IMG/VR virus record: IMGVR_UViG_2802429227_000005
Coordinates: 1 to 16,099 of that record
DNA from: a virus
Lineage: Duplodnaviria; Heunggongvirae; Uroviricota; Caudoviricetes
Strand: one strand, 5' to 3'
DNA: 16,099 nucleotides
Part shown: in pieces, positions 509-16,099 of the stretch
Layout of the letters: each line of letters begins with the position of its first letter
Numbering within the stretch: the first letter of the stretch is position 1
Translations under genes and position numbers: made by a program
Notes under the pieces: generated by a model
Database searches by the model: none
Told to the model about the DNA's origin: nothing
Seen by the model: the letters and a program-made list of their open reading frames with translations, nothing else

Positions 509-516
509 CTACTACC

Positions 517-768: not shown

Positions 769-788
769 ATAGTTACTTGTTCATATTA

Positions 789-2009: not shown

Positions 2010-2010
2010 G

Positions 2011-2202: not shown

Positions 2203-2203
2203 C

Positions 2204-3593: not shown

Positions 3594-3609
3594 GGTAAAT
3601 TCCTCTTTG

Positions 3610-3924
3610 TTAATTTATTCGTATGCCTGCTCTTTCTTCATCGAGTTTTTTTAGCTTGTATCGCATAGCTCTTACTGAATAAATTGAGCGGCAGGTTGCA
3701 ATTGCTATTTCTTCTGCGGAGAACTTACCGAAAAGTGATACTTCGGCTCTTGTCCAGCGTCTTCCACGAAGTCGGCTAACAATGTCAGCGCCAATCCTTG
3801 TTGCTTTCGCCATTACTGCTTTTTCAGTCCTTCCCAGTTTTTCAGCGATAACTTCAACTGGCATTGTTGTCGCTACTTCGCGCAAGAAATCGACTTCCCA
3901 TTTCTCCCATGGAGTCTTTTTCAT
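3610..3924 (-). CDS. Hypothetical protein (104 aa) with two tandem W-x3-E...L repeats, possibly HTH/Myb-like DNA binding
   Basis: Internal repeat visible in the translation ([32 protein letters not shown] and [31 protein letters not shown]); immediately downstream of the Gp157-like gene. Confidence 0.5.
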
Positions 3925-3935
3925 AGGCGATACCG

Positions 3936-4424
3936 TTATTTGATAAGAAGTGAAGGTTTCCCAACTTTGAGTTGAGCGCCGGGGATATTTATTCCTGCTT
4001 TTAGTTGGTGTTTGATTGCCAGTTTGTCGGCTTTTATTGTTGTTTCAAACTCAACGTATTCTGGAGGAAGGGCGCTTGAGTCGATGATTTCTACAATTTC
4101 TGACGGTTTGCGGATTGTTACCTGGTGAATACCTGCTCGAATATTTTTCTTGCCAAACATTTCAAGCGATGACGCTATATATGATTTGATGCTGTCAATC
4201 TTATTTTGAATTACTGCAGCTCGCTCATTCAGTGACTTTGCCTCTTCCTTGAGGCGTTCGGCATAACCAGATTCATTTTTAATGACGGAAAGAAGTTGCT
4301 CTATTTTATCGGTAAATTCTCCTTCCATGCCTTCTATTGTGTCAGCAATCATCTCTGGTTCTAAATCTGAATCCATCAATTTTGCGTATTCATTGGCAAT
4401 TTCATACAGTTTGCTCACTGGCAA
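3936..4424 (-). CDS. Siphovirus Gp157-like protein (162 aa), recombination-associated partner often found next to RecT/Erf
   Basis: Coiled-coil N-terminus (LYEIANEYAKLMDSDLEPEMIADTIEGMEGEFTDKIEQL...) resembles the Gp157 family as I recall it; sits directly downstream of recT, overlapping its end. Confidence 0.5.
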   Translation of the reverse strand: MPVSKLYEIANEYAKLMDSDLEPEMIADTIEGMEGEFTDKIEQLLSVIKNESGYAERLKEEAKSLNERAAVIQNKIDSIKSYIASSLEMFGKKNIRAGIHQVTIRKPSEIVEIIDSSALPPEYVEFETTIKADKLAIKHQLKAGINIPGAQLKVGKPSLLIK

Positions 4425-5304
4425 CCTCCAGTTTCGCTTTGCATTCTATGTAAATGGCTTGTACGTTCTGCTGCAATTTCATTCCAGATGTCAGGCGATA
4501 TGCTTCTGCAAAATATCGCTTCAAATCATCCATGTTTTCTGCCTGAGCCATTTCATCACAAAGAAGTTGTGCTTTATCCATTATTTCCTGCTGGCGTTTC
4601 CGTTCATCTTCGCGGATATCTTCCTCTGATTTGTGCGGCATAACTGGTTCCTGATGCATACCTTCATCTTCGTTAAGCAGGTGAATGGCATTATCCAGTC
4701 GCTGGGCTTTAGGCCAGTATTTGCTGGCGCGTTTAACTATTGTTTTACGCGCCATCTCTTCCCAGAATGTTTTCCACGGTCCATTCTTTGCCTTGCTCGT
4801 TGCTTCCACAGCTTTAATTTCTGCCAGACTCATTTCTTCAGTCAGGTAGTCACCATCTGCTGTTTTAACCGTGCAATAACCACCAACAATAGAGCCTCGC
4901 TCACCAAATGCGTTGTATTTGTGGGTTGGTGCTGAATCAAGGCCATTTGATTCATAGGTGTCGTTTGAGTACACCAGTTTGCATTGCCCCCACTTAATTG
5001 ATCCTGTCGACTGTGCAAGGTGAAGTAATCCCATATAGCTGATATCAAGGCACACCATGCCGTCGCGCGGAACCAGATAAGCAAGTTTGCTGGCTGGGTT
5101 TAAGGTGATGCCGATCGCCGCAACATTGATGATGGCGTTCTGTGCGCTGGTTGGATTTGCCAGTGCCGTTTTAGCCAGGTAATCATTTTTCTGGAAATAC
5201 TGAATTGCAAACTGGCTTTCCTTAGCCCATGTCACCGTCTGTTCAGTCAATGCTCCGCAGAATAACTGCTCTTGCTGTTTAACGAATTCAACGATATTGC
5301 TCAT
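4402..5304 (-). CDS. recT: RecT-family single-strand annealing protein (300 aa)
   Basis: Motif NGPWKTFWEEMARKTIVKRASKYWP matches the conserved RecT core (E. coli RecT NGPWVTHWEEMAKKTAIRRLFKYLP); in the bet position of the early-left operon. Confidence 0.85.
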   Translation of the reverse strand: MSNIVEFVKQQEQLFCGALTEQTVTWAKESQFAIQYFQKNDYLAKTALANPTSAQNAIINVAAIGITLNPASKLAYLVPRDGMVCLDISYMGLLHLAQSTGSIKWGQCKLVYSNDTYESNGLDSAPTHKYNAFGERGSIVGGYCTVKTADGDYLTEEMSLAEIKAVEATSKAKNGPWKTFWEEMARKTIVKRASKYWPKAQRLDNAIHLLNEDEGMHQEPVMPHKSEEDIREDERKRQQEIMDKAQLLCDEMAQAENMDDLKRYFAEAYRLTSGMKLQQNVQAIYIECKAKLEVASEQTV

Positions 5305-5612
5305 GCTGCTTCTCCAAAAATGTGTCTGCGTTTGAATATTGCGAAGGCATATTCAGCCTTAACTCTTTCGGTTATTGCATCCCAGAACCATTCAGCGGCT
5401 TTTTCCTGATAGTTACAGTCATCATCTTCCAGCCAGTCGATAGCGTCCTTAGTGTGTTCATCTGGTTTATATGAGCGAAGCATTTCGCTTATTGGGTCGC
5501 AACGTTTGCAGAGGCGATCAACTTCACTGTTGATTCGTTCGTAATCTTCATCAGTAAAACTTGCGATTATTTGCGATATTTCACGCTTATCATTCAGAGT
5601 CAGAATCATCAT
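5301..5612 (-). CDS. Hypothetical acidic protein (103 aa) in the gam/arf position upstream of recT
   Basis: ORF with an AGGAG Shine-Dalgarno; ATGA stop/start overlap with recT; no resemblance to lambda Gam that I can see. Confidence 0.5.
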   Translation of the reverse strand: MMILTLNDKREISQIIASFTDEDYERINSEVDRLCKRCDPISEMLRSYKPDEHTKDAIDWLEDDDCNYQEKAAEWFWDAITERVKAEYAFAIFKRRHIFGEAA

Positions 5613-5693
5613 CTTTCTCCTGTTCTTTGTGCTGATTGAGCATTTTGTTCATCTGACGAATGAATTCTTCGTCTGACCAGTTATCTGTAAAAC

Positions 5694-5846
5694 TCATTTC
5701 CTGCGATACCACGGAAGGTTGATAGCTGATTTCATCGCTTTATTTGCTTCAAGCCACATTTTGGAATCACCAATAAATCTGGCTATTACTGCTTTGTTCT
5801 GTGCAGCACGAAGCATCTGGTGATTAATGGCTATTTCATTGCGCAT
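5694..5846 (-). CDS. Small hypothetical protein (50 aa) in the kil position
   Basis: Manual translation: MRNEIAINHQMLRAAQNKAVIARFIGDSKMWLEANKAMKSAINLPWYRRK; start overlaps the 3' end of the CIII-like gene; between cIII-like and the recombination genes as kil is in lambda. Confidence 0.3.
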   Translation of the reverse strand: MRNEIAINHQMLRAAQNKAVIARFIGDSKMWLEANKAMKSAINLPWYRRK

Positions 5847-5965
5847 AACGCCTCCAGTTGTTTCTTTGCTGCTCTGATTAATTGTTTAACTCGGCGTGAT
5901 AATTCAGATTCGTGCGGGTAGAAAGCGGACATGACGCCGCTACCCGCGAGCTGAAAGTGCATCAT
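5831..5965 (-). CDS. cIII: CIII-like protein (44 aa; putative FtsH inhibitor that would stabilise CII)
   Basis: Translation MMHFQLAGSGVMSAFYPHESELSRRVKQLIRAAKKQLEALCAMK aligns in pattern with lambda CIII (...AGWPVAGCPSESLLERITRKLRDGWKRL...); GGAG 6 nt upstream of the ATG-ATG. The ORF-track entry 5831..6070 has a longer, probably spurious N-terminal extension. Confidence 0.5.
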   Translation of the reverse strand: MMHFQLAGSGVMSAFYPHESELSRRVKQLIRAAKKQLEALCAMK

Positions 5966-6025
5966 GGGTAACTCCTTATATTTGATTGCATAACGAAAAC
6001 GCCTCGAGTGAAGCGTTATTGGTAT

Positions 6026-6055
6026 GCATATAAAAAGGCCCTCACATTGGAGGGC
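6026..6055 (-). terminator. Rho-independent terminator candidate in the PL operon (between ral and cIII-like)
   Basis: Minus strand GCCCTC-CAATGT-GAGGGC (6-bp stem) followed by CTTTTTATAT. Confidence 0.5.
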
Positions 6056-6191
6056 AAAGAAGATTTCCAATAATCAGAACAAGTCGGCTCCTGTTTAGTT
6101 ACGAGCGACATTGCTCCGTGTATTCACTCGTTGGAATGAATACACAGTGCAGTGTTTATTCTGTTGTTTATGCCAAAAATAAAGGCCACCA

Positions 6192-6392
6192 TCAGGCAGC
6201 CTTGTTATTCTGTTTACCAAGTTCTCTGGCAATCATTGCCGTAGTTCGTATTGCCCATTTATCGACATATTTCCCATCCTCCATTACAGGAAACATTTCT
6301 TCAGGCTTAACCATGCATTCCGATTGCAGCTTGCATCAATTGCATCGCTTGAATTGTCCACACCATTGATTTTTATCAATAGTCGTAGTCAT
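6192..6392 (-). pseudogene. ral: ral-like restriction-alleviation gene interrupted by an in-frame TGA at codon 19 (6336..6338)
   Basis: Minus-strand frame reads MTTTIDKNQWCGQFKRCN-TGA-CKLQSECMVKPEEMFPVMEDGKYVDKWAIRTTAMIARELGKQNNKAA: 66 codons in one frame with a single internal stop. The family assignment is from memory of lambda Ral. Confidence 0.5.
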
Positions 6393-6462
6393 ACGGATAG
6401 TCCTGGTATTGTTCCATCACATCCTGAGGATGCTCTTCGAACTCTTCAAATTCTTCTTCCAT
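6376..6462 (-). CDS. Very small acidic ORF (28 aa), orf28-like, overlapping the ral start
   Basis: Manual translation MEEEFEEFEEHPQDVMEQYQDYPYDYDY; AAGGTGA Shine-Dalgarno 5 nt upstream; its stop overlaps the ral ATG (6390..6392); position matches the small ORF between sieB/N and ral in lambda. Confidence 0.4.
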   Translation of the reverse strand: MEEEFEEFEEHPQDVMEQYQDYPYDYDY

Positions 6463-6608
6463 ATATCACCTTAAATAGTGGATTGCGGTAGTAAAGATTG
6501 TGCCTGTCTTTTAACCACATCAGGCTCGGTGGTTCTCGTGTACCCCTACAGCGAGAAATCGGATAAACTCTATTCACCCCCTACAGAGAGAATGATGGAG
6601 ATTCACCG

Positions 6609-7148
6609 ATGAGTAACTGGTGGCAGGAACTATTACGTTTCTTCCTGCGTGGTCTTACGCTACAACAGTTAATTCATATGCTTATTATTTTAATTGCCTT
6701 GATAATAATCACCCCTGCATCAATTAAAGAGTGGGTAGATATAAGGAACCCAGAAATACTTCCAGATCACTGGATGTATTACGCAATGCTTTTGTGTATC
6801 AGTTATGTTCTGAACAGGGTGATGGAGTTTATATTTCTGGCATCTTCAGACAGATATAAAAAATATCTCAGTAAGAGAGATGAGGCTAAAGTAATTGTGG
6901 AGACTGAGCGCCTGTTCAATTCTCTGAGTATTCAGGAAAAAGAGGTTTTAGCATTTGCTGTTATGGCAAATAACAAAATCGTACTTAAGCACGGCGATCC
7001 GGTCGCTTTATCTCTTATGAGAAAAGGCCTTCTCCATCGCTCAGGTGTGACTTACAGCGCGTCAGGTAAAGAGAAATTTGTTATACCTGACGTCTGGTTC
7101 CATGAGTGTTATATGCGCTTTGCTGGTAAAGCTGATGAGCTAATTTAG
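6609..7148 (+). CDS. sieB: Superinfection-exclusion protein B-like membrane protein (179 aa)
   Basis: N-terminal transmembrane segment (LIHMLIILIALIIITPA); rightward gene embedded in the leftward PL operon and ending 21 bp from the 3' end of N, as sieB does in lambda. Assignment is positional and topological, not by sequence identity. Confidence 0.45.
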   Translation: MSNWWQELLRFFLRGLTLQQLIHMLIILIALIIITPASIKEWVDIRNPEILPDHWMYYAMLLCISYVLNRVMEFIFLASSDRYKKYLSKRDEAKVIVETERLFNSLSIQEKEVLAFAVMANNKIVLKHGDPVALSLMRKGLLHRSGVTYSASGKEKFVIPDVWFHECYMRFAGKADELI

Positions 7149-7169
7149 TTCCTCGACGGCGGGGGATCG

Positions 7170-7442
7170 TCACCTCGCTGTCAGTTGTTTTGATTTCCGG
7201 TAGCCTGCCGCGTAAATGGCTACGTTTGGCAGGCAAATACTTCCACTGCATTCATCTGCCTTCTTGCAGCAAAGGCTTCCTAGTGATGCTGCTTTGTCTG
7301 CTCTGACGCAACCAGAGAGCTTTAGCGCAATTTTTCGCGCCAGTGCTTCATTACTGCGTCGCTCGGCAATAAGTTCTGCTCTGCGAGCTTTGTAGCGGCT
7401 TTTTGCCGTACCTTTGGATTCTTTCCAGACAATGGTTACCAT
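7170..7442 (-). CDS. N: N-like transcription antiterminator with an arginine-rich motif, phage-21 type (90 aa from the ATG at 7442)
   Basis: Arg-rich N-terminal segment GTAKSRYKARRAELIAERR matches the phi21 N RNA-binding peptide as I recall it; C-terminus YAAGYRKSKQLTAR resembles P22 gp24; GGAGA Shine-Dalgarno before the ATG at 7442; a nut site lies upstream. Confidence 0.7.
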   Translation of the reverse strand: MVTIVWKESKGTAKSRYKARRAELIAERRSNEALARKIALKLSGCVRADKAASLGSLCCKKADECSGSICLPNVAIYAAGYRKSKQLTAR

Positions 7443-7553
7443 GATGGTCTCCTTTAAGTGGCTTTGGCGCATGACGCGTCGAGGTGCTTATCTTCTCGAT
7501 CGCTGTCTTGCAGCTGCAATTCGCGCCATCCCCAAAACCACTCAAGTTCTGGT

Positions 7554-7593
7554 CTCAACGGTTAGGTTGAGAGTCCGTCGATGTTAAAGAGCC
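7554..7593 (-). promoter_or_regulatory. nutL site: boxA (GGCTCTTTAA) followed by a boxB hairpin (UCUCAAC-CUAACC-GUUGAGA)
   Basis: Minus strand reads GGCTCTTTAACATCGACGGACTCTCAACCTAACCGTTGAGA between PL and N; the boxB loop CUAACC matches the one in nutR. Confidence 0.6.
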
Positions 7594-7638
7594 TGCCAAT
7601 CTGTTCCGTTTGGCTTCCAGCGTCCTGCTGATGGCTTA

Positions 7639-7692
7639 AATTTAAGACTTCTTAATTTATTGGTCAAGTGCATTTTTGAAGAAAACTTAATT
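7639..7692 (-). promoter_or_regulatory. PL promoter (-35 TTGACC at 7662..7667, -10 TAAATT at 7639..7644, minus strand) with two OL operators of P22 type
   Basis: Operator-like TTAAG-N4-CTTAA palindromes at 7642..7655 and TGAAG-N4-CTTAA at 7677..7690, same pattern as the OR sites; 17-bp promoter spacer. Confidence 0.5.
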
Positions 7693-7729
7693 TTATGGAC
7701 GTTAATTTAGTTTGTCTTTGATTTTTAAC

Positions 7730-7756
7730 GGGAAATAAAAAAGGGGCGAAAGCCCC
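7730..7756 (-). terminator. Rho-independent terminator directly after the c2 stop codon (GGGGC-GAAA-GCCCC then T-run)
   Basis: Minus strand GGGGCTTTCGCCCC followed by TTTTTTATTTCC; the stem starts about 1 nt after the c2 stop. Confidence 0.7.
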
Positions 7757-8407
7757 TTAAGGAAGGTTTGCTAGCTTGGCATCAACGACAACGCCAATGA
7801 TTTTACAGTTCCCATTGATTTCAATCATTGGGTATTGTGGATTGAGTGGTTTCAGGAATTTTCTACCGGCATCAATAACTAACTTTTTGAATGTCGCCTC
7901 GTTTTCTCCTTCAAGTTTGGCGACTACCAGCTTTCCATTACGTGGTTCGACTTCTGGGTCGACGAGAATAATCATCCCCTCAGGAATACTCAGTCCTGCC
8001 GGGGCAGTCATTGAATCGCCTTTAACGTCGAGCCAAAAAGAGTCTTCAGAACAATCTACCGTTGTGTCGTACCAGTTATCTATTGCACGCCTATGATATG
8101 GCTCTACAGCTTCCATCCAACATCCTGCGCTTACCCAACTAATTAGAGGATACGAACCTCTTGGATCATGCCTGCTGTGATAGGCAATGTTTGAAAGACT
8201 ATCCTCTCCTTTCAACAGGTAATCAGGGGAGCACTGCAAAGCCTTGGCTAAGGCCAATAGGTTTTCGCCATTGGGCTCAGTTTCAGATCGCTCCCACTGG
8301 GAAATAGCAACATTAGACACGCCAACCATCTTGCCAAGGGCAGCCTGCCTAATCTTGAGTTCTTTTCTGCGAGCGCGAATACGCTCACCCATCAGTTGTG
8401 TATTCAT
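7757..8407 (-). CDS. c2: Phage repressor, P22 C2 type (HTH_XRE N-terminal domain plus LexA/S24-like C-terminal domain; 216 aa)
   Basis: Translation MNTQLMGERIRARRKELKIRQAALGKMVGVSNVAISQWERSETEP... matches the P22 c2 repressor almost residue for residue as I recall it; C-terminal GDSM and K (Ser-Lys dyad) self-cleavage motifs are present. Confidence 0.9.
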   Translation of the reverse strand: MNTQLMGERIRARRKELKIRQAALGKMVGVSNVAISQWERSETEPNGENLLALAKALQCSPDYLLKGEDSLSNIAYHSRHDPRGSYPLISWVSAGCWMEAVEPYHRRAIDNWYDTTVDCSEDSFWLDVKGDSMTAPAGLSIPEGMIILVDPEVEPRNGKLVVAKLEGENEATFKKLVIDAGRKFLKPLNPQYPMIEINGNCKIIGVVVDAKLANLP

Positions 8408-8473
8408 AGTTAAGACATCTTAAATAAACTTGACTTAAGATTCCTTTGGTGGATAATTTAAGTGTTCTTTAAT
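8408..8473 (+). promoter_or_regulatory. OR operator triplet with PR (-35 TTGACT at 8430..8435, -10 GATAAT at 8453..8458) and divergent PRM
   Basis: Three TTAAG-N4-CTT(A/T)(A/G) palindromes at 8410..8423, 8435..8448 and 8458..8471, spaced about 23-25 bp apart, overlapping PR; OR3 abuts the c2 start codon. Confidence 0.7.
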
Positions 8474-8487
8474 TTCGGAGCGAGTCT

Positions 8488-8673
8488 ATGTACAAAAAAG
8501 ATGTTATTGACCACTTCGGAACCCAGCGTGCTGTTGCTAAAGCACTAGGCATTAGCGATGCAGCAGTCTCTCAGTGGAAAGAAGTTATCCCAGAGAAAGA
8601 CGCCTATCGATTGGAAATCGTTACAGCTGGCGCCCTGAAGTATCAAGAAAGTGCTTACCGCCAAGCGGCATAA
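8488..8673 (+). CDS. cro: Cro repressor, P22 type (61 aa)
   Basis: Translation MYKKDVIDHFGTQRAVAKALGISDAAVSQWKEVIPEKDAYRLEIVTAGALKYQESAYRQAA matches P22 Cro as I recall it; GGAG Shine-Dalgarno; divergent from c2 across OR. Confidence 0.85.
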   Translation: MYKKDVIDHFGTQRAVAKALGISDAAVSQWKEVIPEKDAYRLEIVTAGALKYQESAYRQAA

Positions 8674-8680
8674 GCAAATT

Positions 8681-8720
8681 GCTCTTTAACAGTTCTGGCC
8701 TTTCACCTCTAACCGGGTGA
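8681..8720 (+). promoter_or_regulatory. nutR site: boxA (GCTCTTTAACA) plus a phi21-type boxB hairpin (TCACC-TCTAACC-GGGTGA)
   Basis: Read directly downstream of cro; boxB shares the CUAACC loop with nutL. Confidence 0.65.
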
Positions 8721-8778
8721 GCAAACATCAGCGGCAAATCCATTGGGTGTGCCGCTATAACTCAATATCAATATAGGA

Positions 8779-8811
8779 AAATTAACAAATGGCACAAGCA
8801 AGCTACAGCAA
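8779..8811 (-). promoter_or_regulatory. pRE-like CII-dependent promoter: TTGC-N6-TTGC (8798..8811) then 13 nt then -10 TAATTT (8779..8784), leftward
   Basis: Minus strand GCTTGCTGTAGCTTGC-TTGTGCCATTTGT-TAATTT; the TTGC repeats lie in the first codons of the cII-like gene, as in lambda pRE. Confidence 0.55.
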
Positions 8812-9085
8812 GCCAACACAGCGAGAAATTGATCGCGCTGAAACTGATTTACTCATCAACCTGTCAACGCTTACCCAGCGCGGTCTGGCAAAGATGATTG
8901 GCTGTCATGAATCGAAGATAAGCAGAACGGACTGGAGATTTATTGCTTCGGTCTTGTGTGCTTTCGGAATGGCATCAGACATCAGTCCGATTAGCAGGGC
9001 TTTTAAGTATGCGCTTGATGAAATCACAAAGAAAAAATCCCCGGTGGCCGCCGGGGACTCTAAGCAAATTGATATGCAATTCTGA
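8789..9085 (+). CDS. c1: CII-like transcriptional activator (P22 c1 type; 98 aa)
   Basis: Pattern similarity to lambda CII: ...ESKISRTDWRF... against ...KSQISRWKRDW..., and C-terminus TKKKSPVAAGDSKQIDMQF against TNKKRPAATERSEQIQMEF; position after cro and nutR. Confidence 0.75.
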   Translation: MAQASYSKPTQREIDRAETDLLINLSTLTQRGLAKMIGCHESKISRTDWRFIASVLCAFGMASDISPISRAFKYALDEITKKKSPVAAGDSKQIDMQF

Positions 9086-9108
9086 GGGAATTACTGGATC
9101 AATCCACA
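9031..9108 (-). ncRNA. OOP-like antisense RNA candidate (about 78 nt), with an extended -10 promoter and a terminator inside the 3' end of the cII-like gene
   Basis: Minus-strand hairpin CCCCGG-CGGCCA-CCGGGG (plus 9039..9056) followed by ATTTTTTC; about 77 nt upstream on the minus strand is TGtCATAAT (plus 9115..9123). Geometry mirrors lambda pO/OOP. Confidence 0.5.
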
Positions 9109-9117
9109 GGAGTCATT

Positions 9118-9279
9118 ATGACAAAACGTCGTAAGAAATACCAGGAAAAAGAAGAGATTCGACACCCTGATTCACCTGAGGGATTAGTGGTAGCCGCAGC
9201 AAATAACAGGGCGTTCGCAGAGCGCCTTGTTGGTGTTTACAGACTAGCCAAAGCAGGAGTGAAACATGGGCGTCGTTAA
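9118..9279 (+). CDS. Hypothetical small basic protein (53 aa; below the ORF-track cutoff) between c1 and the O-like gene
   Basis: Manual translation [53 protein letters not shown]; strong AGGAG Shine-Dalgarno 5 nt upstream of the ATG; overlaps the O-like start by 14 nt in another frame. Confidence 0.3.
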   Translation: MTKRRKKYQEKEEIRHPDSPEGLVVAAANNRAFAERLVGVYRLAKAGVKHGRR

Positions 9280-10096
9280 GTTAGCTGATTACAGGCCTCA
9301 ACTGGAGGTCGTGGAGCATCGCGTGGCAGAACTCGAAGATGGCTACACTCGGACTGCAAACACACTGTTAGAAGCCGCCATGCTTTCTGGACTTACTCTA
9401 CATCAGTTACTGATTGTTATGGCTGTGTGGCGCAAGACATACGGTTACAACAAAAAAATAGATTGGATCGGAAACGAACAGTTCGCTGAACTCACTGGCA
9501 TGGCACCAACCAAATGCTCTACCGCCAAAAACGAGCTTATCAGAATGGGAGTTCTCATTCAGGTGGGGCGTCAAGTTGGTATGAATACAAACATTTCCGA
9601 GTGGAAAACGAAAGTTAACGGATTCGGTAAAACATTTACCAATTCGGTAAAACAAACCTTCACCAAATCGGTAAAAAGCAATTTACCGAATCAGTCAAAC
9701 ACAAAAGACAATATACAAAAGACAATAAATACAAATACCCCCTTACCCCCTAACGGGGGCGGCGATGGGCAGGTTAAACCTGAACGTCGCAAGGCAGAAC
9801 GAATCGACTACGAATCCTTCCTGAACGCCTACAACACCGAAGTCGGTGACAGACTTCCACATGCTGTTGCGGTCAACGAGAAACGCAAACGCCGCCTGAA
9901 GAAAATCATCCCGCAACTGAAAACGCCAAACGTGGACGGTTTCAGAGCGTATGTCAGGGCGTTTGTGCATCAGGCCAAGCCGTTTTACTTCGGAGACAAC
10001 GACACGGGCTGGACGGCAGATTTTGATTACCTGCTGAGGGAAGATTCGTTAACGGGAGTGCGGGAAGGGAAGTTTGCAGACAGGGGGATTGCATGA
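9266..10096 (+). CDS. O: Replication initiator, lambda O-like N-terminal domain (P22 gene 18 type; 276 aa)
   Basis: N-terminal region aligns with lambda O ([18 protein letters not shown]...WRKTYGYNK...NISEW against VADLDDGYARLSNMLLEA...LRKTYGWNK...NISEW); iterons inside the gene. Confidence 0.8.
9622..9737. repeat. Origin of replication inside the O-like gene: ATTCGGTAAAAC iterons followed by an AT-rich stretch
   Basis: Direct repeats ATTCGGTAAAAC at 9622..9633 and 9642..9653, degenerate AATCGGTAAAAA at 9666..9677, inverted TTTACCGAAT at 9682..9691, then AT-rich 9700..9737. Confidence 0.6.
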
Positions 10097-11469
10097 AACA
10101 GGATATCGAAGCGAGCGTTATCGGTGGCTTGCTGATTGGTGGATTAACACCAACTGCCAGTGACGTTCTGGCAACGCTGGAGCCGGAAGCGTTTTCAATT
10201 CCGCTCTACCGGAAAGCCTTCGAGGTTATCCGCAAGCAGGCGAGAAACAGAAACCTAATCGACGCGCTGATGGTTGCCGAGGCGTGCGGAGAGGAGCATT
10301 TCACGTCAATCCTGATGACCAGCAAAAACTGCCCGAGTGCCGCAAACCTGAAGGGATATGCCGGAATGGTCGCGGATAACTATCACCGCCGTCTGGTGCT
10401 GGAAATCATGGATGAAATGCGTGAACCAATTCAGAGCGGAACCATCGACGCATCGAGTCAGGCGATGGATGAACTTGTAAAGCGTCTTTCAGCCATCAGA
10501 AAGCCACGTGACGAGGTTAAACCTGTACGGTTAGGGGAAATCATCACCGACTACACTGACACGCTTGACAGGCGTCTGAGGAACGGAGAAGAGTCCGATA
10601 CCCTGAAGACCGGAATCGAAGAACTTGATGCCATCACCGGAGGGATGAACGCGGAAGACCTTGTGATAATCGCTGCTCGTCCTGGTATGGGGAAAACCGA
10701 ACTGGCGCTGAAGATTGCCGAAGGCGTTGCAAGCCGCGTTATTCCTGGTTCTGACGTCCGGCGCGGAGTGTTGATTTTCTCGATGGAAATGAGCGCATTG
10801 CAGATTGCAGAGCGAAGCATTGCCAACGCCGGGAGGATGCCGGTTAGCGTGCTGCGAAATCCTGCTTCGATGGATGACGAAGGCTGGGCGCGCGTTGCTA
10901 ACGGCATGAGTCAGCTTGCAGATTTGGATGTATGGGTAGTCGATGCCTCGCGGTTATCGGTCGAAGAAATACGCTCAATCGCAGAACGGCACAAACAGGA
11001 AAATCCAAACCTGTCACTCATCATGGTGGATTATCTTGGCCTGATTGAGAAGCCGAAAGCAGATCGCAACGACCTCGCAATTGCTCACATCTCCGGAAGC
11101 CTGAAGGCGATGGCGAAAGACCTGAAAACACCGGTTATCCCCCTGAGTCAGCTTTCGCGCGATGTTGAGAAGCGACCAAACAAACGCCCGACAAACGCAG
11201 ATTTGCGTGATTCAGGAAGCATTGAACAGGACGCAGACTCAATCATCATGCTCTATCGGGAAGCGGTATATGACGAGAACAGTAGCGCCGCGCCATTTGC
11301 TGAAATCATCGTGACGAAAAACCGTTTTGGCTCACTTGGTACGGTTTACCAGCGGTTCTGCAACGGACACTTTGTTGCATGTGACCAGGATGAAGCCAGA
11401 CAGATTTGCACAACATCAAATGCACCCGCTGCACGTGGCAGACGATATGCACAAGGGGCTGACGTATGA
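10093..11469 (+). CDS. Replicative DNA helicase, DnaB-like (P22 gene 12 type; 458 aa)
   Basis: Walker A ([15 protein letters not shown]), DnaB-type architecture and length; ATGA overlap with the O-like stop. Confidence 0.85.
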
Positions 11470-11496
11470 CCATCTACATCACTGAGCTAATAACAG

Positions 11497-11526
11497 GCCT
11501 GCTGGTAATCGCAGGCTTTTTTATTT
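11497..11526 (+). terminator. Rho-independent terminator after the replication genes (tR2-like): GCCTGC-TGGTAATC-GCAGGC then TTTTTTATTT
   Basis: Perfect 6-bp GC-rich stem with a T-run on the plus strand, directly downstream of the helicase stop. Confidence 0.7.
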
Positions 11527-11541
11527 GGGGGAGAGTAAATC

Positions 11542-11748
11542 GTGGCTGAGTTTATGCTCGTCGCACTCAAATGCGTTGGCGTTGGATGGATTCTTCTGAC
11601 GTTTTTTATTGTTCTGCATGGCTACATTCGTCTTGTTAATGACGGTAAAGAGCCATGGTGTACGTTGTTTTGCGCTGCATTTGTCTGGGTGATTATCGGT
11701 GTTATGCCTGTCGCTGTAGCAAAAATGGCGTGGCGTTTTTTGAGTTGA
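11542..11748 (+). CDS. Hypothetical small membrane protein (68 aa, two predicted TM helices), GTG start
   Basis: ORF in the six-frame track; GGGGGAGAG Shine-Dalgarno 7 nt upstream of the GTG; two hydrophobic helices (LVALKCVGVGWILLTFFIVL and FCAAFVWVIIGVMPVAVA). Confidence 0.4.
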   Translation: MAEFMLVALKCVGVGWILLTFFIVLHGYIRLVNDGKEPWCTLFCAAFVWVIIGVMPVAVAKMAWRFLS

Positions 11749-11765
11749 ACTGAGGATAAGTATCG

Positions 11766-12080
11766 ATGGACGAATCAAGAAAGCAGTTTGAAGAAAGTTG
11801 GTTGCGACGTGGGGGCGAATCCTCAGACCTTATCCGTTACCCTGAAAATCACCATGAAATTGGCAGCGGTAATATTGGTGGTCAATACGTGATGGTCGAT
11901 GTTCAAGGCCACTGGCAAACGTGGCAGGCATCGCGAGCAGCTATTGAAATTGAGTTGCAAAAGCCAAAGAAAGGCCCACTTCCCGGTGATTATCACATTG
12001 GCTATGACTCAGGTGCAGAATCACAATACGAAAGCGATGTAGAGGCCATCCGCGCTGCTGGAGTCAAAGTGAAGGAGTAA
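11766..12080 (+). CDS. Hypothetical acidic protein (104 aa), nin-region accessory gene
   Basis: ORF in the six-frame track with plausible Shine-Dalgarno; immediately followed by ninB; no family recognised. Confidence 0.5.
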   Translation: MDESRKQFEESWLRRGGESSDLIRYPENHHEIGSGNIGGQYVMVDVQGHWQTWQASRAAIEIELQKPKKGPLPGDYHIGYDSGAESQYESDVEAIRAAGVKVKE

Positions 12081-12082
12081 CG

Positions 12083-12493
12083 ATGAAGCAAACAATCTTC
12101 CTCCGAACTAAGCAACAACAGCAAGCTGCAATAAATGCCATCCTCGCAACACCACTCGATAAAGACAAGCCAGTCACCATCCGCATTACTGACTACAAGC
12201 GCAACCTTGACCAGAACGCAAAATTTCACGCGATGGTCGCAGATATCGCCAGGCAAGTTCAGTGGCGCGATAAATGGTTAAAACCAGAACAATGGAAGGT
12301 TTTGTTGATCAGCGGTCATGCAGTGGCTACAAAGCAGGAAGCTGATGTTTTGCCCGGCCTTGAAGGCGAATACGTCAACATTCGCGAAAGCAGCGCGCAG
12401 ATGAGCGTGAAGCGTATGGCAAGTCTGATCGAGTACACAACAGCATGGGCTATTGGTCAGGGTGTCAGATTTACCGACAGGAGGTACGAATGA
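12083..12493 (+). CDS. ninB: NinB (Orf-family recombination mediator; 136 aa)
   Basis: Similarity to lambda NinB ([30 protein letters not shown] against VVTIQERNRSLDQNRKLWACLGDVSRQVEW); GAAGGAG Shine-Dalgarno. Confidence 0.8.
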
Positions 12494-12672
12494 GACGACA
12501 GCGACGAAGTTTCACCGACATCATCTGCGAAAACTGCAAATACCTTCCAACGAAACGCTCCAGAAATAAACGCAAGCCAATCCCAAAAGAATCTGACGTA
12601 AAAACCTTCAACTACACGGCTCACCTGTGGGATATCCGGTGGCTTAGAGAACGTGCGAGGAAAACAAGGTGA
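12490..12672 (+). CDS. ninE: NinE (60 aa)
   Basis: Translation [60 protein letters not shown] closely matches lambda NinE as I recall it; ATGA overlap with the ninB stop. The ORF-track entry starts earlier (12445) at a probably non-native start. Confidence 0.75.
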
Positions 12673-12839
12673 TTGACCAAAATCGAAGTTACGAACAAGG
12701 AAGTGTCGAGCGAGCTTTAACGTGCGCTAACTGCGGTCAGAAGCTGCATGTGCTGGAAGTTCACGTGTGTGAAGCGTGCTGCGCAGAACTGATGAGCGAT
12801 CCGAATAGCTCAATGTACGAGGAAGAAGACGATGAATGA
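12669..12839 (+). CDS. ninF: NinF (56 aa, GTG start; below the ORF-track cutoff)
   Basis: Manual translation [56 protein letters not shown], a Cys-rich zinc-ribbon-like protein matching lambda NinF as I recall it; GTGA overlap with the ninE stop. Confidence 0.65.
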
Positions 12840-13554
12840 GTTAATAAATGGCAATGCCATCAAAATGACAAGCATTGAAATCGCTGAGTTGGTTGGTAAG
12901 CGTCATGACAATGTGAAACGTACCATCGAAACGCTGGCTAAAAATGGTGTTATCCGGCTTCCTCAAATTGAGGATTGTGGAAGAATCAATGGGTTAGGCT
13001 TAAATCAAAGTTTTTGTGTGTATGTATTCGAAGGCGAACAAGGAAAGCGAGACAGTATTGTCGTTGTAGCCCAGTTGTCGCCGGAATTCACCGCTCGTCT
13101 TGTTGACCGTTGGCGAGAGCTTGAAGAAACTGCGGTTAATATCCCCAAAACGTTACCGGAAGCGTTGCGCCTTGCTGCTGATCTTGCTGAGCAGAAAATG
13201 CAACTGGAAAACCAGCTCGCAATTGCCGCACCTAAAGTTGAGTTTGCCGATCGAGTTGGCGAGGCCAGCGGAATTTTGATTGGAAACTATGCAAAGGTTG
13301 TTGGTATTGGTCCAAACAAACTGTTTGCATGGATGCGCGATCACAAAATCCTTATTGCTTCAGGTTCCCGGCGCAATGTGCCAATGCAGGAATATATGGA
13401 TCGCGGCTATTTCACAGTGAAAGAAACAGCGGTCAACACAAATCACGGAATACAGATATCGTTCACCACAAAAATCACCGGGCGTGGTCAACAGTGGCTG
13501 ACCAGAAAGCTGCTCGATAACGGAATGCTGAAAGTAACCGGGGAGGCTGCTTAA
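12832..13554 (+). CDS. Phage regulatory protein Rha / antirepressor (Rha N-terminal domain plus KilAC/ANT-like C-terminal domain; 240 aa)
   Basis: N-terminus MTSIEIAELVGKRHDNVKRTIETLAKNG matches the Rha domain; C-terminal LPEALRLAADLAEQ...AAPKVEFADRV matches the ANT/KilAC pattern; inserted between ninF and the YbcO-like gene. Confidence 0.7.
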   Translation: MNELINGNAIKMTSIEIAELVGKRHDNVKRTIETLAKNGVIRLPQIEDCGRINGLGLNQSFCVYVFEGEQGKRDSIVVVAQLSPEFTARLVDRWRELEETAVNIPKTLPEALRLAADLAEQKMQLENQLAIAAPKVEFADRVGEASGILIGNYAKVVGIGPNKLFAWMRDHKILIASGSRRNVPMQEYMDRGYFTVKETAVNTNHGIQISFTTKITGRGQQWLTRKLLDNGMLKVTGEAA

Positions 13555-13844
13555 TGGCTAATCTACGCAAAGAAGCACGCGGCAGAGAATGCCAGGTACG
13601 TATTTACGGCGTATGCAATGGCAATCCTGAAACTACAGTTCTGGCACATTACCGGATGGCTGGAATTTGCGGAACGGGAATGAAGCCTGACGACCTGATC
13701 GGTGCATGGGCTTGTAGTTCGTGTCACGATGAAATCGACCGACGCACCCATAACCTCGACAACAAAGACGCCAGACTTTACCACCTCGAAGGCGTGATCA
13801 GGACGCAGGCGATACTGCTGAAGGAGGGAAAGATTAAGCCATGA
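13554..13844 (+). CDS. ybcO: YbcO-like DUF1364 zinc-binding putative nuclease (96 aa)
   Basis: Translation MANLRKEARGRECQVRIYGVCNGNPETTVLAHYRMAGICGTG...CSSCHDEIDRR closely resembles E. coli DLP12 YbcO as I recall it. Confidence 0.7.
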   Translation: MANLRKEARGRECQVRIYGVCNGNPETTVLAHYRMAGICGTGMKPDDLIGAWACSSCHDEIDRRTHNLDNKDARLYHLEGVIRTQAILLKEGKIKP

Positions 13845-14203
13845 ACGAATATCAGTTTGTGCTTCCATACCCGCCGTCGGTGAATACCTACTGGCGAAGA
13901 CGAGGAAGCCAATACTACATCAGCGATAAAGGCCAGAAATACCGAAAAGACGTTCAGCAAATCATCCGCCAACTTAAGTTAGACATTTTCACCAAATCAC
14001 GACTCCGCATCAAAGTAATCGCAGACGTTCCAGACTCCCGCCGCCGCGACCTCGACAACATCCTGAAAGGTTTACTCGACTCCCTTATCCACGCCGGATT
14101 TGCGGAAGACGACGAGCAATTCGATGACATTCGCGTAATTCGTGGTGTGAAAGTACCAGGCGGACGGCTTGGAATAAAAATCACCGAACTGGAGAACGTA
14201 TGA
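13841..14203 (+). CDS. rusA: RusA Holliday-junction resolvase (120 aa)
   Basis: Similarity to E. coli RusA (LPYPPSVNTYWRRRG..., DLDNILKGLLDSLIHAGF..DDEQ against LPWPPSNNRYYRHNRG..., DLDNLQKAAFDALTKAGF..DDAQ); ATGA overlap with upstream gene. Confidence 0.85.
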   Translation: MNEYQFVLPYPPSVNTYWRRRGSQYYISDKGQKYRKDVQQIIRQLKLDIFTKSRLRIKVIADVPDSRRRDLDNILKGLLDSLIHAGFAEDDEQFDDIRVIRGVKVPGGRLGIKITELENV

Positions 14204-14388
14204 ACGCCACAATTCAAACGATACCAGAGCTTCTTATCCAGACACGAGGCAATCAGACCGAAGTGGCGAGGATGCTTTCCTGCGCAAGAGGAACAGTGCT
14301 CAAGTACAACCGAGACAGCAAAGGCGAGCGTCACGTAATAGTTAACGGCGTCCTGATGGTCACGCCAGGCAAAAAGGGAAGACGATGA
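14200..14388 (+). CDS. ninH: NinH-like small HTH protein (62 aa)
   Basis: TIPELLIQTRGNQTEVARMLSCARGTVLKYNRDSKGERHVIVNGVLMV against lambda NinH TIPDMLVEAYGNQTEVARRLKCSRGTVRKYVDDKDGKMHAIVNDVLMV. Confidence 0.7.
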   Translation: MNATIQTIPELLIQTRGNQTEVARMLSCARGTVLKYNRDSKGERHVIVNGVLMVTPGKKGRR

Positions 14389-14903
14389 GCATAAGAGAGC
14401 TAAACCTCACCAAAGAACAGCACGATTGGCTGAATGGCTGGCTTGAACTGTGGGGCGCATGGGTTTATTCAGGTCGTCTGGAAAAGCGCATGAGCAGCGT
14501 AATAGCGAAGTTCATGGAGAGCGTAGAGCCGGGAAGAGTTATGACAAGGCCAATGTGCAATGATGATGATGGAATGTTGATTTCTCAGGTCGTCGATTCT
14601 GTCATGTGCATTGACAAGAAAGCCTTTGGCATCCTCCTCAGCTACTACGCTCATGGTTCATCTAAGCGAGCAATTGCATCCTACTATCACGCGACTGCAA
14701 AGCCACGCAAGATGTGTGGACGCGGTGGCGAGGGATGGAGAAAACCTTCACTGGCAACCTGTAGAAACGAAATTGACGATATCCTGAAAGCGTCATTATT
14801 TGTTTTGTACCAACCAATGCAAAATGCTTTCAAAATGCGTAAACGTGTTGAGAAAGTTAAGCATGTTGCTGTTAAAAGCCTTGACATGCAATTAGCCATT
14901 TAG
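14385..14903 (+). CDS. Q: Late-gene antiterminator Q, non-lambda type (172 aa)
   Basis: Last gene before a PR'-like promoter and the lysis cassette; N-terminal LELWGAWV motif and Cys-rich segment resemble non-lambda Q families as I recall them; ATGA-coupled to ninH. Confidence 0.55.
   Translation: MSIRELNLTKEQHDWLNGWLELWGAWVYSGRLEKRMSSVIAKFMESVEPGRVMTRPMCNDDDGMLISQVVDSVMCIDKKAFGILLSYYAHGSSKRAIASYYHATAKPRKMCGRGGEGWRKPSLATCRNEIDDILKASLFVLYQPMQNAFKMRKRVEKVKHVAVKSLDMQLAI
14678..14710 (-). promoter_or_regulatory. paQ-like CII-dependent antisense promoter inside Q: TTGC-N6-TTGC (14697..14710) then 13 nt then -10 TAGGAT (14678..14683)
   Basis: Minus strand TTGCGTGGCTTTGC-AGTCGCGTGATAG-TAGGAT; identical spacing architecture to the pRE-like site at 8779..8811. 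Confidence 0.45.
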
Positions 14904-14910
14904 CCATAAT
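14881..14910 (+). promoter_or_regulatory. PR' late promoter candidate (-35 TTGACA at 14881..14886, 18-bp spacer, -10 CATAAT at 14905..14910); qut expected to overlap
   Basis: Consensus-like hexamers overlapping the Q stop codon; oriented toward S/R. Confidence 0.45.
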
Positions 14911-14920
14911 TAGAGGGTAA

Positions 14921-14962
14921 GCTGCCATTAGTGACTCTTAAGTTGCAACGGTGGCTTTTTTT
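14921..14962 (+). terminator. tR'-like terminator candidate: weak hairpin followed by a T7 run (14956..14962)
   Basis: GCCATT...GGTGGC imperfect stem (includes G-U pairs) then TTTTTTT; lies about 45 nt downstream of the predicted PR' start. The hairpin is weak. Confidence 0.3.
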
Positions 14963-15382
14963 GTTTGCACAACAGGTAAGAGCATTGAACCCTCAGACCT
15001 CGCGGAATTGGTGAAAGGTGCCGCGCAGTGCTCTTATCGTTGTGGTGAATGCACAGGCTGATGTGTAAGGGCAAGAATCTTTCGCTGGATTCGGTGTGGC
15101 CACGTAGCCCGCTGTAGGCAGTTGCAGCAAACCGGAGATCAGCACCGGTCGCCACAATCCAAACTGAGCCGTAGCCACTGGCTATCCTGAACTCATCAGT
15201 GATAGTTATGCTGCGGCCTTCTACATATGACCTTCGTGAAAGCGGGTGGCAAGAGGCTGCGCTAACAACCTCATGCCGTTTTGCCCGTGCATATCGGTCA
15301 CGAACAAATCTGATTACTAAACACAGTAGCCTGGATTTGTTCTATCAGTAATCGACCTTATTCCTAATTAAATAGAGCAAAT

Positions 15383-15396
15383 CCCCTTATTGGGGG
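15383..15396 (+). promoter_or_regulatory. sdi-like stem-loop (CCCC-TTATT-GGGG) immediately upstream of the dual start of S
   Basis: Hairpin overlapping the Shine-Dalgarno for the Met1/Met3 starts (ATGAAGATG at 15403..15411), as in lambda S translational control. Confidence 0.5.
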
Positions 15397-15402
15397 TAAG
15401 AC

Positions 15403-15726
15403 ATGAAGATGCCAGAAAAACATGACCTGTTAGCTGCCATTCTCGCGGCAAAGGAACAAGGCATCGGGGCAATCCTTGCGTTTGCAATGGCGTACCTTCG
15501 CGGCAGATATAATGGCGGTGCGTTTACAAAAACAGTAATCGACGCAACGATGTGCGCCATTATCGCCTGGTTCATTCGTGACCTTCTCGACTTCGCCGGA
15601 CTAAGTAGCAATCTCGCTTATATAACGAGCGTGTTTATCGGCTACATCGGTACTGACTCGATTGGTTCGCTTATCAAACGCTTCGCTGCTAAAAAAGCCG
15701 GAGTAGAAGATGGTGGAAATCAATAA
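15403..15726 (+). CDS. S: Holin S, lambda type, with dual start (S107 antiholin / S105 holin; 107 aa)
   Basis: Translation [107 protein letters not shown] is essentially lambda S as I recall it. Confidence 0.9.
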
Positions 15727-16045
15727 TCAACGTAAGGCGTTCCTCGATATGCTGGCGTGGTCAGAGGGAACTGATAACGGACGACAGAAAACCAGAAATC
15801 ATGGTTATGACGTCATTGTAGGCGGAGAGCTATTCACTGATTACTCAGATCACCCTCGCAAACTTGTCACGCTAAACCCAAAACTCAAATCAACAGCAGC
15901 CGGGCGCTATCAGCTTCTTTCCCGTTGGTGGGATGCCTATCGTAAGCAGCTTGGCCTGAAAGACTTCTCTCCGAAAAGCCAGGACGCTGTGGCACTGCAA
16001 CAGATTAAAGAGCGTGGCGCTTTACCGATGATTGATCGCGGTGAT
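15710..16045 (+). pseudogene. R: Endolysin R (lambda-type lytic transglycosylase) truncated after codon 112 by an IS2 insertion
   Basis: Translation [42 protein letters not shown]...IKERGALPMIDRGD matches lambda R, then at 16046 the frame runs into IS2 terminal sequence (WICPYISRHLL...) instead of continuing as lambda R does. Confidence 0.85.
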
Positions 16046-16099
16046 TGGATTTGCCCCTATATTTCCAGACATCTGTTATCACTTAACCCATTACAAGCC
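16046..16099 (-). mobile_element. IS2 right end (inverted repeat plus the 3' end of the transposase ORF), partial, cut by the window edge
   Basis: TGGATTTGCCCCTATATTTCCAGACATCTGTTATCACTTAACCCATTACAAGCC is the reverse complement of the IS2 right terminus as I recall it; minus strand 16057..16099 encodes ...ACNGLSDNRCLEI-stop, the transposase C-terminus. Confidence 0.8.

What the first reader, a model, noticed from the sequence alone, without database searches (positions are those of the whole stretch)
14881..15302. Q-PR' module of non-lambda type with a possibly very short early-terminated transcript and a junction to lambda-like sequence
The PR' candidate overlaps the Q stop codon. A T7 run preceded by only a weak hairpin lies about 45 nt downstream, so the terminated transcript would be much shorter than lambda's 6S RNA. 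From about 14963 onward the sequence resembles what I recall of the lambda region upstream of S. This suggests a recombination junction at the terminator, pairing a foreign Q/qut with lambda lysis genes.
Basis: partly seen in the sequence, partly recalled or inferred. Interest (0 to 1): 0.4.

Follow-up and report, generated by a model that had tools for sequence, protein, structure and literature searches.

The report
Phage 21-type late gene switch
This is an ordinary, already described copy of the phage 21-type late-gene switch (antiterminator Q, its promoter and a very short terminated leader), joined at the terminator to lambda-type lysis genes in a damaged E. coli prophage.

Summary
The features are real, and they are known. 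The 172-aa protein encoded at 14385-14903 belongs to the phage 21 Q family. It matches PF06530 and the solved Q21 structures at E~1e-90, and it has no similarity to lambda Q.

The 3' end of the Q gene runs into a strong sigma-70 promoter (TTGACA, 18 nt, CATAAT, 14881-14910). This promoter holds two 8-bp direct repeats in the register of the phage 21 Q-binding element.

From 14918 to 14962 the sequence equals the annotated pause element and terminator tR' of phage 21, apart from one base. The terminated RNA would therefore be about 46 nt, against about 194 nt for lambda 6S RNA. The same elements are annotated in the Sf6 and HK75 records.

The hairpin is a 15-pair interrupted stem, not a weak one. 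A rare G-to-A change at 14927 costs about 6 kcal/mol.

Lambda similarity starts in the terminator's T tract but is patchy:
- 14956-14988: 30 of 33 bases match.
- 15027-15051: 22 of 25 bases match.
- 15153-16045: 96.4% identical, ungapped, through S and into R, where IS2 interrupts R at 16046.
- Two blocks totalling 139 nt are not lambda-like.

In 120 viral contigs, both flanks of the 46-nt pause/terminator block reassort freely. Novelty is low.

The parts
14385..14903 (+). Q antiterminator gene, phage 21 family, Sf6 gp59 / HK75 allele. It is 172 aa, and its last 10 codons read through the -35 element and the upstream Q-binding subsite.
   Evidence: ORF list. PF06530 at 1.5e-25. Q21 structures 6JNX/6P18 at about 1e-90. 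Versus Q21: 4 differences in residues 1-102 and 22 in residues 103-162, including the base-reading residues H95R and R128N.
14881..14886 (+). PR' -35 element, TTGACA
   Evidence: Promoter scan, 11 of 12. Aligned with the annotated -35 of phage 21 and with the pR' features of Sf6 and HK75.
14890..14905 (+). Q-binding element: two direct 8-bp repeats, AATTAGCC (14890-14897) and ATTTAGCC (14898-14905)
   Evidence: Same register as phage 21 QBEu ATTGAGCA and QBEd AATGAGCA. The C residues at -21 and -13, shown essential for Q21 (PMC6606751), are kept (C14896, C14904). The core is TTAGCC here against TGAGCA in phage 21.
14905..14910 (+). PR' -10 element, CATAAT
   Evidence: Aligned with the annotated -10 of phage 21 (AACACT) and with the Sf6/HK75 promoter features.
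14917..14917 (+). Inferred transcription start (G), 7 nt after the -10 element
   Evidence: Homologous to the annotated late start site of phage 21, OL657228 position 39541. Inferred by alignment; not mapped here.
14918..14924 (+). Sigma-dependent pause element, TAAGCTG (a -10-like sequence at +2 to +8)
   Evidence: Identical to the annotated phage 21 pause element.
14921..14966 (+). Intrinsic terminator tR': stem-loop 14921-14955, T7 run 14956-14962, then GTTT. Carries a G-to-A change at 14927.
   Evidence: Identical to the phage 21 terminator (record feature at +3 to +50, PMID 1704887) except at 14927. Folding energies. The A variant is in 1 of 120 viral contigs and in at most 3 of 713 E. 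coli records.
14956..14988 (+). First lambda-like linker. It starts in the T tract and forms the 5' arm of the next hairpin.
   Evidence: 30/33 identical to lambda 44774-44806.
14967..15045 (+). Long leader hairpin with a lambda-like stem of about 19 pairs (arms 14967-14987 and 15026-15045) around a non-lambda loop (14989-15025)
   Evidence: Folds at -34.1 kcal/mol; the lambda counterpart folds at -34.3, z = -4.4. The same stem carries at least 4 unrelated loop fillings in viral contigs.
15052..15152 (+). Non-lambda block in the late leader, shared with HK629 and with E. coli prophages
   Evidence: 44/101 identical in a forced global alignment with lambda. HK629 matches window 14917-15420 at 96.8%. 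The overlapping small ORFs have no Pfam match.
15153..15402 (+). Lambda-type late leader directly upstream of S
   Evidence: 237/250 identical to lambda 44936-45185. Annotated as boundary sequence bsq3 in CUS-3.
15403..15726 (+). Lambda-type holin gene S (107 aa)
   Evidence: PF05106 at 2.4e-30. Lies within the ungapped 96.4% match to lambda.
15710..16045 (+). Lambda-type endolysin gene R, cut after codon 112 by IS2
   Evidence: The match to lambda ends at 16045 and all phage matches end there too. Bases 16046-16099 match IS2 ends.

Best explanation
This is the late-gene switch of a lambdoid prophage, of the phage 21 type.

How it works, taken from the phage 21 literature and inferred here by homology:
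1. PR' fires constitutively.
2. Sigma-70 RNA polymerase pauses a few bases after the start, at the -10-like element TAAGCT.
3. Without Q, the polymerase terminates at the hairpin plus T7 run and releases an RNA of about 46 nt.
4. When Q is made from the early rightward transcript, two Q protomers bind the two 8-bp repeats between the -35 and -10 elements.
5. Q engages the paused polymerase and forms a narrow ring at the RNA exit channel that stops hairpins from forming.
6. The polymerase then reads through tR' into the holin and endolysin genes.

The cassette is joined at the terminator's T tract to a lambda-type late leader and S-R lysis genes. The joins are short shared linker sequences at which lambdoid phages recombine.

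What is shown here: sequence identity of every element to annotated and solved counterparts, the fold of the terminator, and the mosaic map.

What is inferred: the start site, the pause, termination, and Q action in this particular copy. This copy has a weakened terminator stem, and its R gene is broken by IS2.
For: Protein: Q21-family membership and no similarity to lambda Q.

Promoter: an 11 of 12 match to consensus.

Phage 21 genome record: it annotates the -35, QBEu/QBEd, -10, start site, pause element and terminator in the same order and spacing. Alignment shows window 14918-14962 is identical to phage 21 except at 14927.

Other records: Sf6 and HK75 annotate pR', qut and tR' on the same sequence.

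Folding: the stem-loop gives -11.6 to -20.2 kcal/mol depending on variant and tail.

Mechanism: two protomers on direct repeats, essential C at -21 and -13, and the exit-channel ring are described in PMC6606751 and bioRxiv 10.1101/651190.

Mosaic map against lambda.

Reassortment: in 120 viral contigs both flanks of the block vary independently.

Frequency: the 50-mer (start site through T tract) matches in 707 of 5,426 complete E. coli genomes.
Against: - Nothing was measured in this copy.
- The Q-binding repeats differ from those of phage 21 (TTAGCC against TGAGCA). Two of the four base-reading residues of Q also differ (H95R, R128N). Binding is therefore inferred for this allele, not demonstrated.
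- The A.C mismatch at 14927 weakens the terminator by about 6 kcal/mol, so termination may be less efficient here.
- The prophage is lysis-defective because IS2 interrupts R, so the switch may no longer be under selection.
- I could not read Guo et al. 1991. The terminator position rests on the genome record's citation of that paper.
Confidence: 0.9

Rival explanations
1. The cassette is a decaying relic. The G-to-A change in the terminator stem and the IS2 insertion in R are both decay in a defective prophage, and the switch no longer controls anything useful. This is compatible with the best explanation of what the element is. It is a rival only about present function.
For: The A at 14927 is rare: 1 of 120 viral contigs and at most 3 of 713 E. 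coli records. It removes about 6 kcal/mol. IS2 cuts R after codon 112.
Against: The Q reading frame is intact at 172 aa. The promoter, Q-binding repeats and pause element are all intact. A second E. coli strain carries the same A variant in a copy 99.2% identical. The lower six pairs of the stem and the T7 run are unchanged.
Confidence: 0.4
2. The short terminated PR' RNA is itself a trans-acting regulatory small RNA, as shown for StxS of Shiga-toxin phages, and is not just a by-product of antitermination control.
For: PMC7547250 shows this for Stx phages and proposes it for the short PR' RNAs of lambda, 21, 82 and P22. PR' is a near-consensus promoter expected to be active in lysogens. The 46-nt block is very strongly conserved.
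Against: Almost the entire 46-nt RNA is locked in the terminator stem. Only about 4 nt at the 5' end and a 4-nt loop are free, which leaves little room for a seed region. The conservation is fully explained by the pause-element and terminator functions. Rfam gave no match.
Confidence: 0.05
3. The short lambda-like patches after the terminator (14956-14988 and 15027-15051) are kept because they form a functional RNA stem in the late leader, for example an RNase III processing site. On this view they are not simply recombination linkers.
For: The two patches pair into a stem of about 19 pairs in the window and in lambda, with unrelated loops: -34.1 and -34.3 kcal/mol, lambda z = -4.4. At least 4 unrelated loop fillings sit between the same arms. 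A 1988 paper on RNase III processing sites in the lambda late transcript exists (reference list). That its sites lie in this hairpin is only my recollection.
Against: The arms hardly vary, so there is no covariation to test. Of five single changes seen, two break a pair. Phage 21 and Sf6 do without the hairpin altogether and carry tRNA genes at that place. The window's fold has z = -2.6 and the CUS-3 version only -1.2.
Confidence: 0.3
4. The T7 run at 14956-14962 is not the working terminator, and the true tR' lies further downstream as in lambda.
For: The simple terminator scan reported nothing in 14300-15500. This copy's stem has a mismatch.
Against: The sequence is identical to the terminator annotated in phage 21 with a literature citation, and in Sf6 and HK75. 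The scan cannot see bulged stems. No other hairpin followed by a T run lies between 14963 and S.
Confidence: 0.03

Closest known systems
Phage 21 late regulatory region (Q21, PR'21, QBE, SDPE, tR'21; Guo, Kainz and Roberts 1991; structures 6JNX, 6P18-6P1C)
   Same: Same protein family. Residues 1-102 are nearly identical to Q21. The order is the same: -35, two 8-bp direct repeats, -10, start site, pause element, terminator. The pause element and terminator are identical apart from one base, and the leader is about 46 nt.
   Different: - The Q C-terminal DNA-binding half is diverged: 22 differences in residues 103-162, including H95R and R128N.
- Q is 10 aa longer and overlaps the promoter.
- The repeats have TTAGCC where phage 21 has TGAGCA.
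- The spacer is 18 nt, not 17, and the -10 is CATAAT, not AACACT.
- Downstream there is a lambda-like leader and S-R genes, where phage 21 has tRNA-Asn/Thr and its pinholin/SAR endolysin genes.
Sf6 gene 59 / HK75 gp51 / CUS-3 Q late regions (annotated pR', qut, tR', boundary sequences bsq3 and bsq4)
   Same: Same Q allele, same promoter and Q-binding repeats, same terminator, at 95.5-97.5% DNA identity. HK75 and CUS-3 share the lambda-like hairpin after the terminator. All share the lambda-type S and R genes.
   Different: Sf6 has tRNA-Asn/Thr after the terminator. HK75 and CUS-3 have other fillings in 15067-15132. HK75 and CUS-3 have TTATCC in the upstream repeat. The window has A instead of G at 14927 and an IS2 in R.
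Lambda Q / PR' / 6S RNA / tR'
   Same: Same logic: a constitutive late promoter, a sigma-dependent pause, an intrinsic terminator and Q-dependent read-through. Sequence is shared from the terminator's T tract onward in patches, and at 96.4% identity from 250 nt upstream of S through S and R.
   Different: The two Q proteins show no sequence similarity. The lambda leader is about 194 nt against about 46 nt here. The promoter, Q-binding site and terminator stem sequences are unrelated.

Membership tests
Phage 21-type Q antitermination cassette | Q protein homologous to Q21 (PF06530 fold, sigma region 4-like helix-turn-helix) | tested here: met
   PF06530 at 1.5e-25. PDB 6JNX/6P18 at about 1e-90 over residues 1-162. 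136 of 162 residues identical.
Phage 21-type Q antitermination cassette | Sigma-70 late promoter directly after, or overlapping, the 3' end of Q | tested here: met
   TTGACA / 18 nt / CATAAT at 14881-14910, 11 of 12. Aligned with the annotated phage 21, Sf6 and HK75 promoters.
Phage 21-type Q antitermination cassette | Q-binding element: two direct 8-bp repeats between -35 and -10, with C at -21 and -13 | tested here: met
   AATTAGCC and ATTTAGCC at 14890-14905. The C residues fall at -21 and -13 relative to G14917. The core sequence differs from phage 21 at 2 of 6 positions, so this is an allele of the site, not the same site.
Phage 21-type Q antitermination cassette | A -10-like sigma-dependent pause element in the first transcribed bases | tested here: met
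   TAAGCTG at 14918-14924, identical to the annotated phage 21 element.
Phage 21-type Q antitermination cassette | Intrinsic terminator within about 50 nt of the start site | tested here: met
   Stem 14921-14955 plus T7 at 14956-14962. Identical to the phage 21 terminator except at 14927. Energy -11.6 to -14.4 kcal/mol here against -17.4 to -20.2 canonical.
Phage 21-type Q antitermination cassette | Q-dependent read-through of the terminator; pause at about +18 | not testable with these tools
   Needs in vitro or in vivo transcription. Demonstrated for phage 21 itself (PMC6606751).
Lambda-type Q cassette | Q protein homologous to lambda Q | tested here: not met
   BLASTP of the window Q against lambda Q gave a best E of 4.6.
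Lambda-type Q cassette | Promoter, qut site and 6S RNA leader sequence similar to lambda | tested here: not met
   No similarity upstream of 14956. The lambda leader (44587-44780) does not align with the window.
Lambda-type lysis cassette (S, R) | Holin S and endolysin R with their upstream leader at high identity to lambda | tested here: met
   Window 15153-16045 matches lambda 44936-45828 at 96.4%, ungapped. S matches PF05106 at 2.4e-30. R is truncated by IS2.

The most novel reading that the evidence does not exclude
The Sf6/window allele of Q (R95, N128) and its TTAGCC repeats may be a specificity pair distinct from Q21 (H95, R128) with TGAGCA repeats. The two alleles would then be orthogonal antiterminators that share one pause element and terminator.

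In the viral contigs where Q could be read, the protein allele and the site allele were linked without exception: 42 of 42 for one pair and 59 of 59 for the other. They lie within a few hundred bases of each other, so linkage alone does not prove co-adaptation.
Probability: 0.4. Interest if true: 0.3.

Novelty: already known. Interest (0 to 1): 0.1.

Why it matters
It matters little. The window holds one more copy of a textbook phage switch whose parts are annotated in public records and whose mechanism is solved structurally.

Its modest value is as a clean example of lambdoid mosaicism. A 46-nt pause/terminator block is shared by two Q alleles and by at least two kinds of downstream leader, with joins at the promoter side and exactly at the T tract.

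The paired differences between Q residues and binding-site bases could guide a test of Q-DNA recognition rules.

Tried and rejected
- **tRNA scan of the window:** none found. Phage 21 and Sf6 carry tRNA-Asn and tRNA-Thr right after the terminator; the window has a hairpin there instead.
- **Rfam at permissive threshold on 14300-16099:** only a chance snoRNA hit (E = 0.2).
- **Simple terminator scan:** no hits. This is a limit of the scan, which cannot see bulges or mismatches. It is not evidence of absence.
- **Pfam on the three small ORFs between the terminator and S:** nothing. The region is treated as non-coding leader.
- **Guo et al. 1991 (PMC207295):** not held. The terminator position rests on the phage 21 record's citation of it.
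- **Location of the lambda late-leader RNase III sites:** searches found only the citation, so the link to the hairpin stays a recollection.
- **Exact-pattern scan of species-representative genomes for the A variant:** one short E. coli contig only, so it was uninformative on frequency. Frequency came instead.
- **Loop inversion:** I checked by eye whether the variable hairpin loops are inversions of each other. They are not.
- **The 46-nt RNA as a regulatory small RNA:** considered, and rated unlikely because almost all of it is base-paired.

Full report
**What is in the sequence**

The ORF at 14385-14903 encodes a 172-aa protein. It matches Pfam PF06530, phage antitermination protein Q, at 1.5e-25. 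It also matches the solved structures of phage 21 Q (6JNX, 6P18 and others) at about 1e-90 over residues 1-162. It shows no similarity to lambda Q (BLASTP best E = 4.6).

The flanking genes fit the nin-to-lysis stretch of a lambdoid phage. RusA and NinH lie upstream and a lambda-type holin lies downstream.

The promoter scan finds TTGACA (14881-14886), an 18-nt spacer and CATAAT (14905-14910), 11 of 12 matches to consensus. A T7 run lies at 14956-14962.

**Comparison with phage 21**

The complete phage 21 genome (OL657228) annotates these features in order:
- the pR' -35 element;
- a Q-binding element made of QBEu ATTGAGCA and QBEd AATGAGCA;
- the -10 element;
- the late start site;
- the sigma-dependent pause element;
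- a terminator from +3 to +50, citing PMID 1704887 (Guo, Kainz and Roberts 1991);
- tRNA-Asn and tRNA-Thr.

Aligned with the window, the stretch TAAGCTGCCGTTAGTGACTCTTAAGTTGCAACGGTGGCTTTTTTT is identical except for one base, G to A at window 14927.

By register the window elements are:
- start site, G14917;
- pause element, 14918-14924;
- terminator stem, 14921-14955;
- expected release point, about 14962-14964.

This gives an RNA of about 46 nt. The 'very short terminated transcript' is thus the known design of phage 21. The Sf6 record annotates the same sequence as late promoter, qut site and tR' 'similar to phage 21'. The HK75 record annotates pR' and Tr' there.

**The terminator**

Folding shows a 15-pair stem with one bulged A and a CUUA loop. 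The energies are:

| Version | Hairpin alone (kcal/mol) | With A-U extension into the tail (kcal/mol) | z-score |
|---|---|---|---|
| Phage 21, HK75 | -17.4 | -20.2 | -4.3 to -4.7 |
| Window | -11.6 | -14.4 | -2.3 |

The window is weaker because A14927 faces C14949.

The A variant is rare. It is in 1 of 120 viral contigs that carry the element. At most 3 of 713 E. coli records match the window's 50-mer at 99% or better. One E. coli draft contig shares it within a copy 99.2% identical. 'Weak hairpin' is therefore true only of this copy, and only relatively.

**The Q allele and its binding site**

The window's repeats are AATTAGCC and ATTTAGCC (14890-14905), with core TTAGCC where phage 21 has TGAGCA. 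The C residues at -21 and -13 are required for Q21 action (PMC6606751), and they are kept.

Compared with Q21, the protein has only 4 differences in residues 1-102 but 22 in residues 103-162. Of the four residues reported to read bases (H95, A124, R127, R128), two differ: H95R and R128N.

In viral contigs carrying the terminator, the site type and the protein type were linked wherever Q could be read:
- all 42 with the TGAGCA-type site have H95 and R128;
- all 59 with the TTAGCC-type site have R95 and N128.

This fits a co-adapted protein-site pair. Close physical linkage could give the same pattern.

In this allele the Q reading frame is 10 codons longer than Q21 and runs through the -35 element and the upstream repeat.

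**The junction with lambda**

BLAST and a global alignment give this map:

| Window segment | Relation to lambda |
|---|---|
| 14956-14988 | 30/33 identical to lambda 44774-44806; starts inside the T tract of each phage's tR' |
| 14989-15026 | unrelated |
| 15027-15051 | 22/25 identical |
| 15052-15152 | unrelated |
| 15153-16045 | 96.4% identical to lambda 44936-45828, ungapped, through S and into R |

The 'lambda-like' leader is itself a mosaic, with 139 of its 447 bases not lambda-like.

The two short lambda-like patches are the two arms of a stem of about 19 pairs (14967-15045). It folds at -34.1 kcal/mol here and -34.3 in lambda, around unrelated loops.

**How general the junctions are**

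An exact search for the 38-nt pause/terminator core found at least 120 viral contigs.

Upstream of the core there are three types:
- the phage 21 promoter and site (48 contigs);
- the Sf6/window type (62 contigs);
- no promoter directly upstream (10 contigs).

The third type is as in HK629. There an extra terminator and an HNH endonuclease gene lie between the -10 element and the pause element.

Downstream of the T tract there are two types:
- tRNA-Asn/Thr (80 contigs);
- the lambda-like hairpin (40 contigs), with at least four unrelated loop fillings.

Both promoter types occur with both downstream types. The 46-nt block therefore acts as a shared linker, with recombination joins on each side. 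The CUS-3 record marks these places as 'boundary sequences' bsq4 and bsq3. The idea that short conserved boundary sequences mediate module exchange in lambdoid phages is established (quoted in PMC3029335).

**Mechanism**

The following is established for phage 21 and inferred here by homology. PR' is constitutive. Sigma-70 holoenzyme pauses at the -10-like element. Two Q protomers bound to the direct repeats engage the paused complex. One of them forms a narrow ring at the RNA exit channel that prevents hairpin formation, so the polymerase ignores tR' and later terminators. Without Q the polymerase releases the short leader RNA.

**State of this copy**

The prophage is damaged. IS2 begins at 16046, after codon 112 of R, and the terminator stem carries the rare mismatch. 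Whether the switch still works here cannot be told from sequence.

**Verdict**

The element is already known, annotated in several phage records, and its 50-mer matches in 13% of complete E. coli genomes. Interest is low.

Noticed in passing
window 16046-16099: An IS2 end begins at 16046 and interrupts the lambda-type endolysin gene R after codon 112, so the prophage is lysis-defective. All phage matches to the window stop at 16045.
   Followed up: partly
window 14927: A G-to-A change in the 5' arm of tR' creates an A.C mismatch and costs about 6 kcal/mol. It is rare: 1 of 120 viral contigs (an independent occurrence in L083) and at most 3 of 713 E. coli records. It is shared by E. coli SCPM-O-B-8794 contig L007.
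   Followed up: yes
window 14967-15045; lambda 44785-44865 (L005 986-1066): A long hairpin sits directly after tR'. Its stem of about 19 pairs is shared with lambda, and the loop is filled by at least four unrelated sequences in different phages. It may be a recombination linker, or the RNase III site reported for the lambda late leader. The latter is from memory only and was not verified.
   Followed up: partly
L092 10476-10522: In one viral contig the loop of that hairpin is replaced by a longer insert. The insert starts with a complete hammerhead type I-like core (CUGACGAG...CGAAAC...GUC). Rfam RF00163 scores it at 24.7 bits, below the gathering score of 34, with E = 0.027.
   Followed up: partly
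L004 (HK629) 1027-1730, and 10 viral contigs: About 700 bp lie between the PR' -10 element and the pause element/tR' block. They carry a second intrinsic terminator and an HNH endonuclease gene, so these phages have two leader terminators in tandem behind one Q-dependent promoter.
   Followed up: no
window 14890-14905 and Q residues 95 and 128 (codons at 14667-14669 and 14766-14768): The Q-binding repeats (TTAGCC against TGAGCA) and two base-reading residues of Q (H95R, R128N) differ together from phage 21. The linkage held in every viral contig where Q could be read (42 of 42 and 59 of 59), which suggests two specificity alleles in the Q21 family.
   Followed up: partly
window 14697-14710, minus strand: The CII-binding motif TTGCN6TTGC of the antisense promoter paQ inside the Q gene is kept at exactly the position annotated in phage 21.
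   Followed up: partly
window 1-16045: The window as a whole is a mosaic lambdoid early-to-late region. The best single phage match, Kapi1, covers only 65% of it at 96% identity. No complete E. coli genome in the collection matched 14860-15420 better than 98.4%.
   Followed up: no
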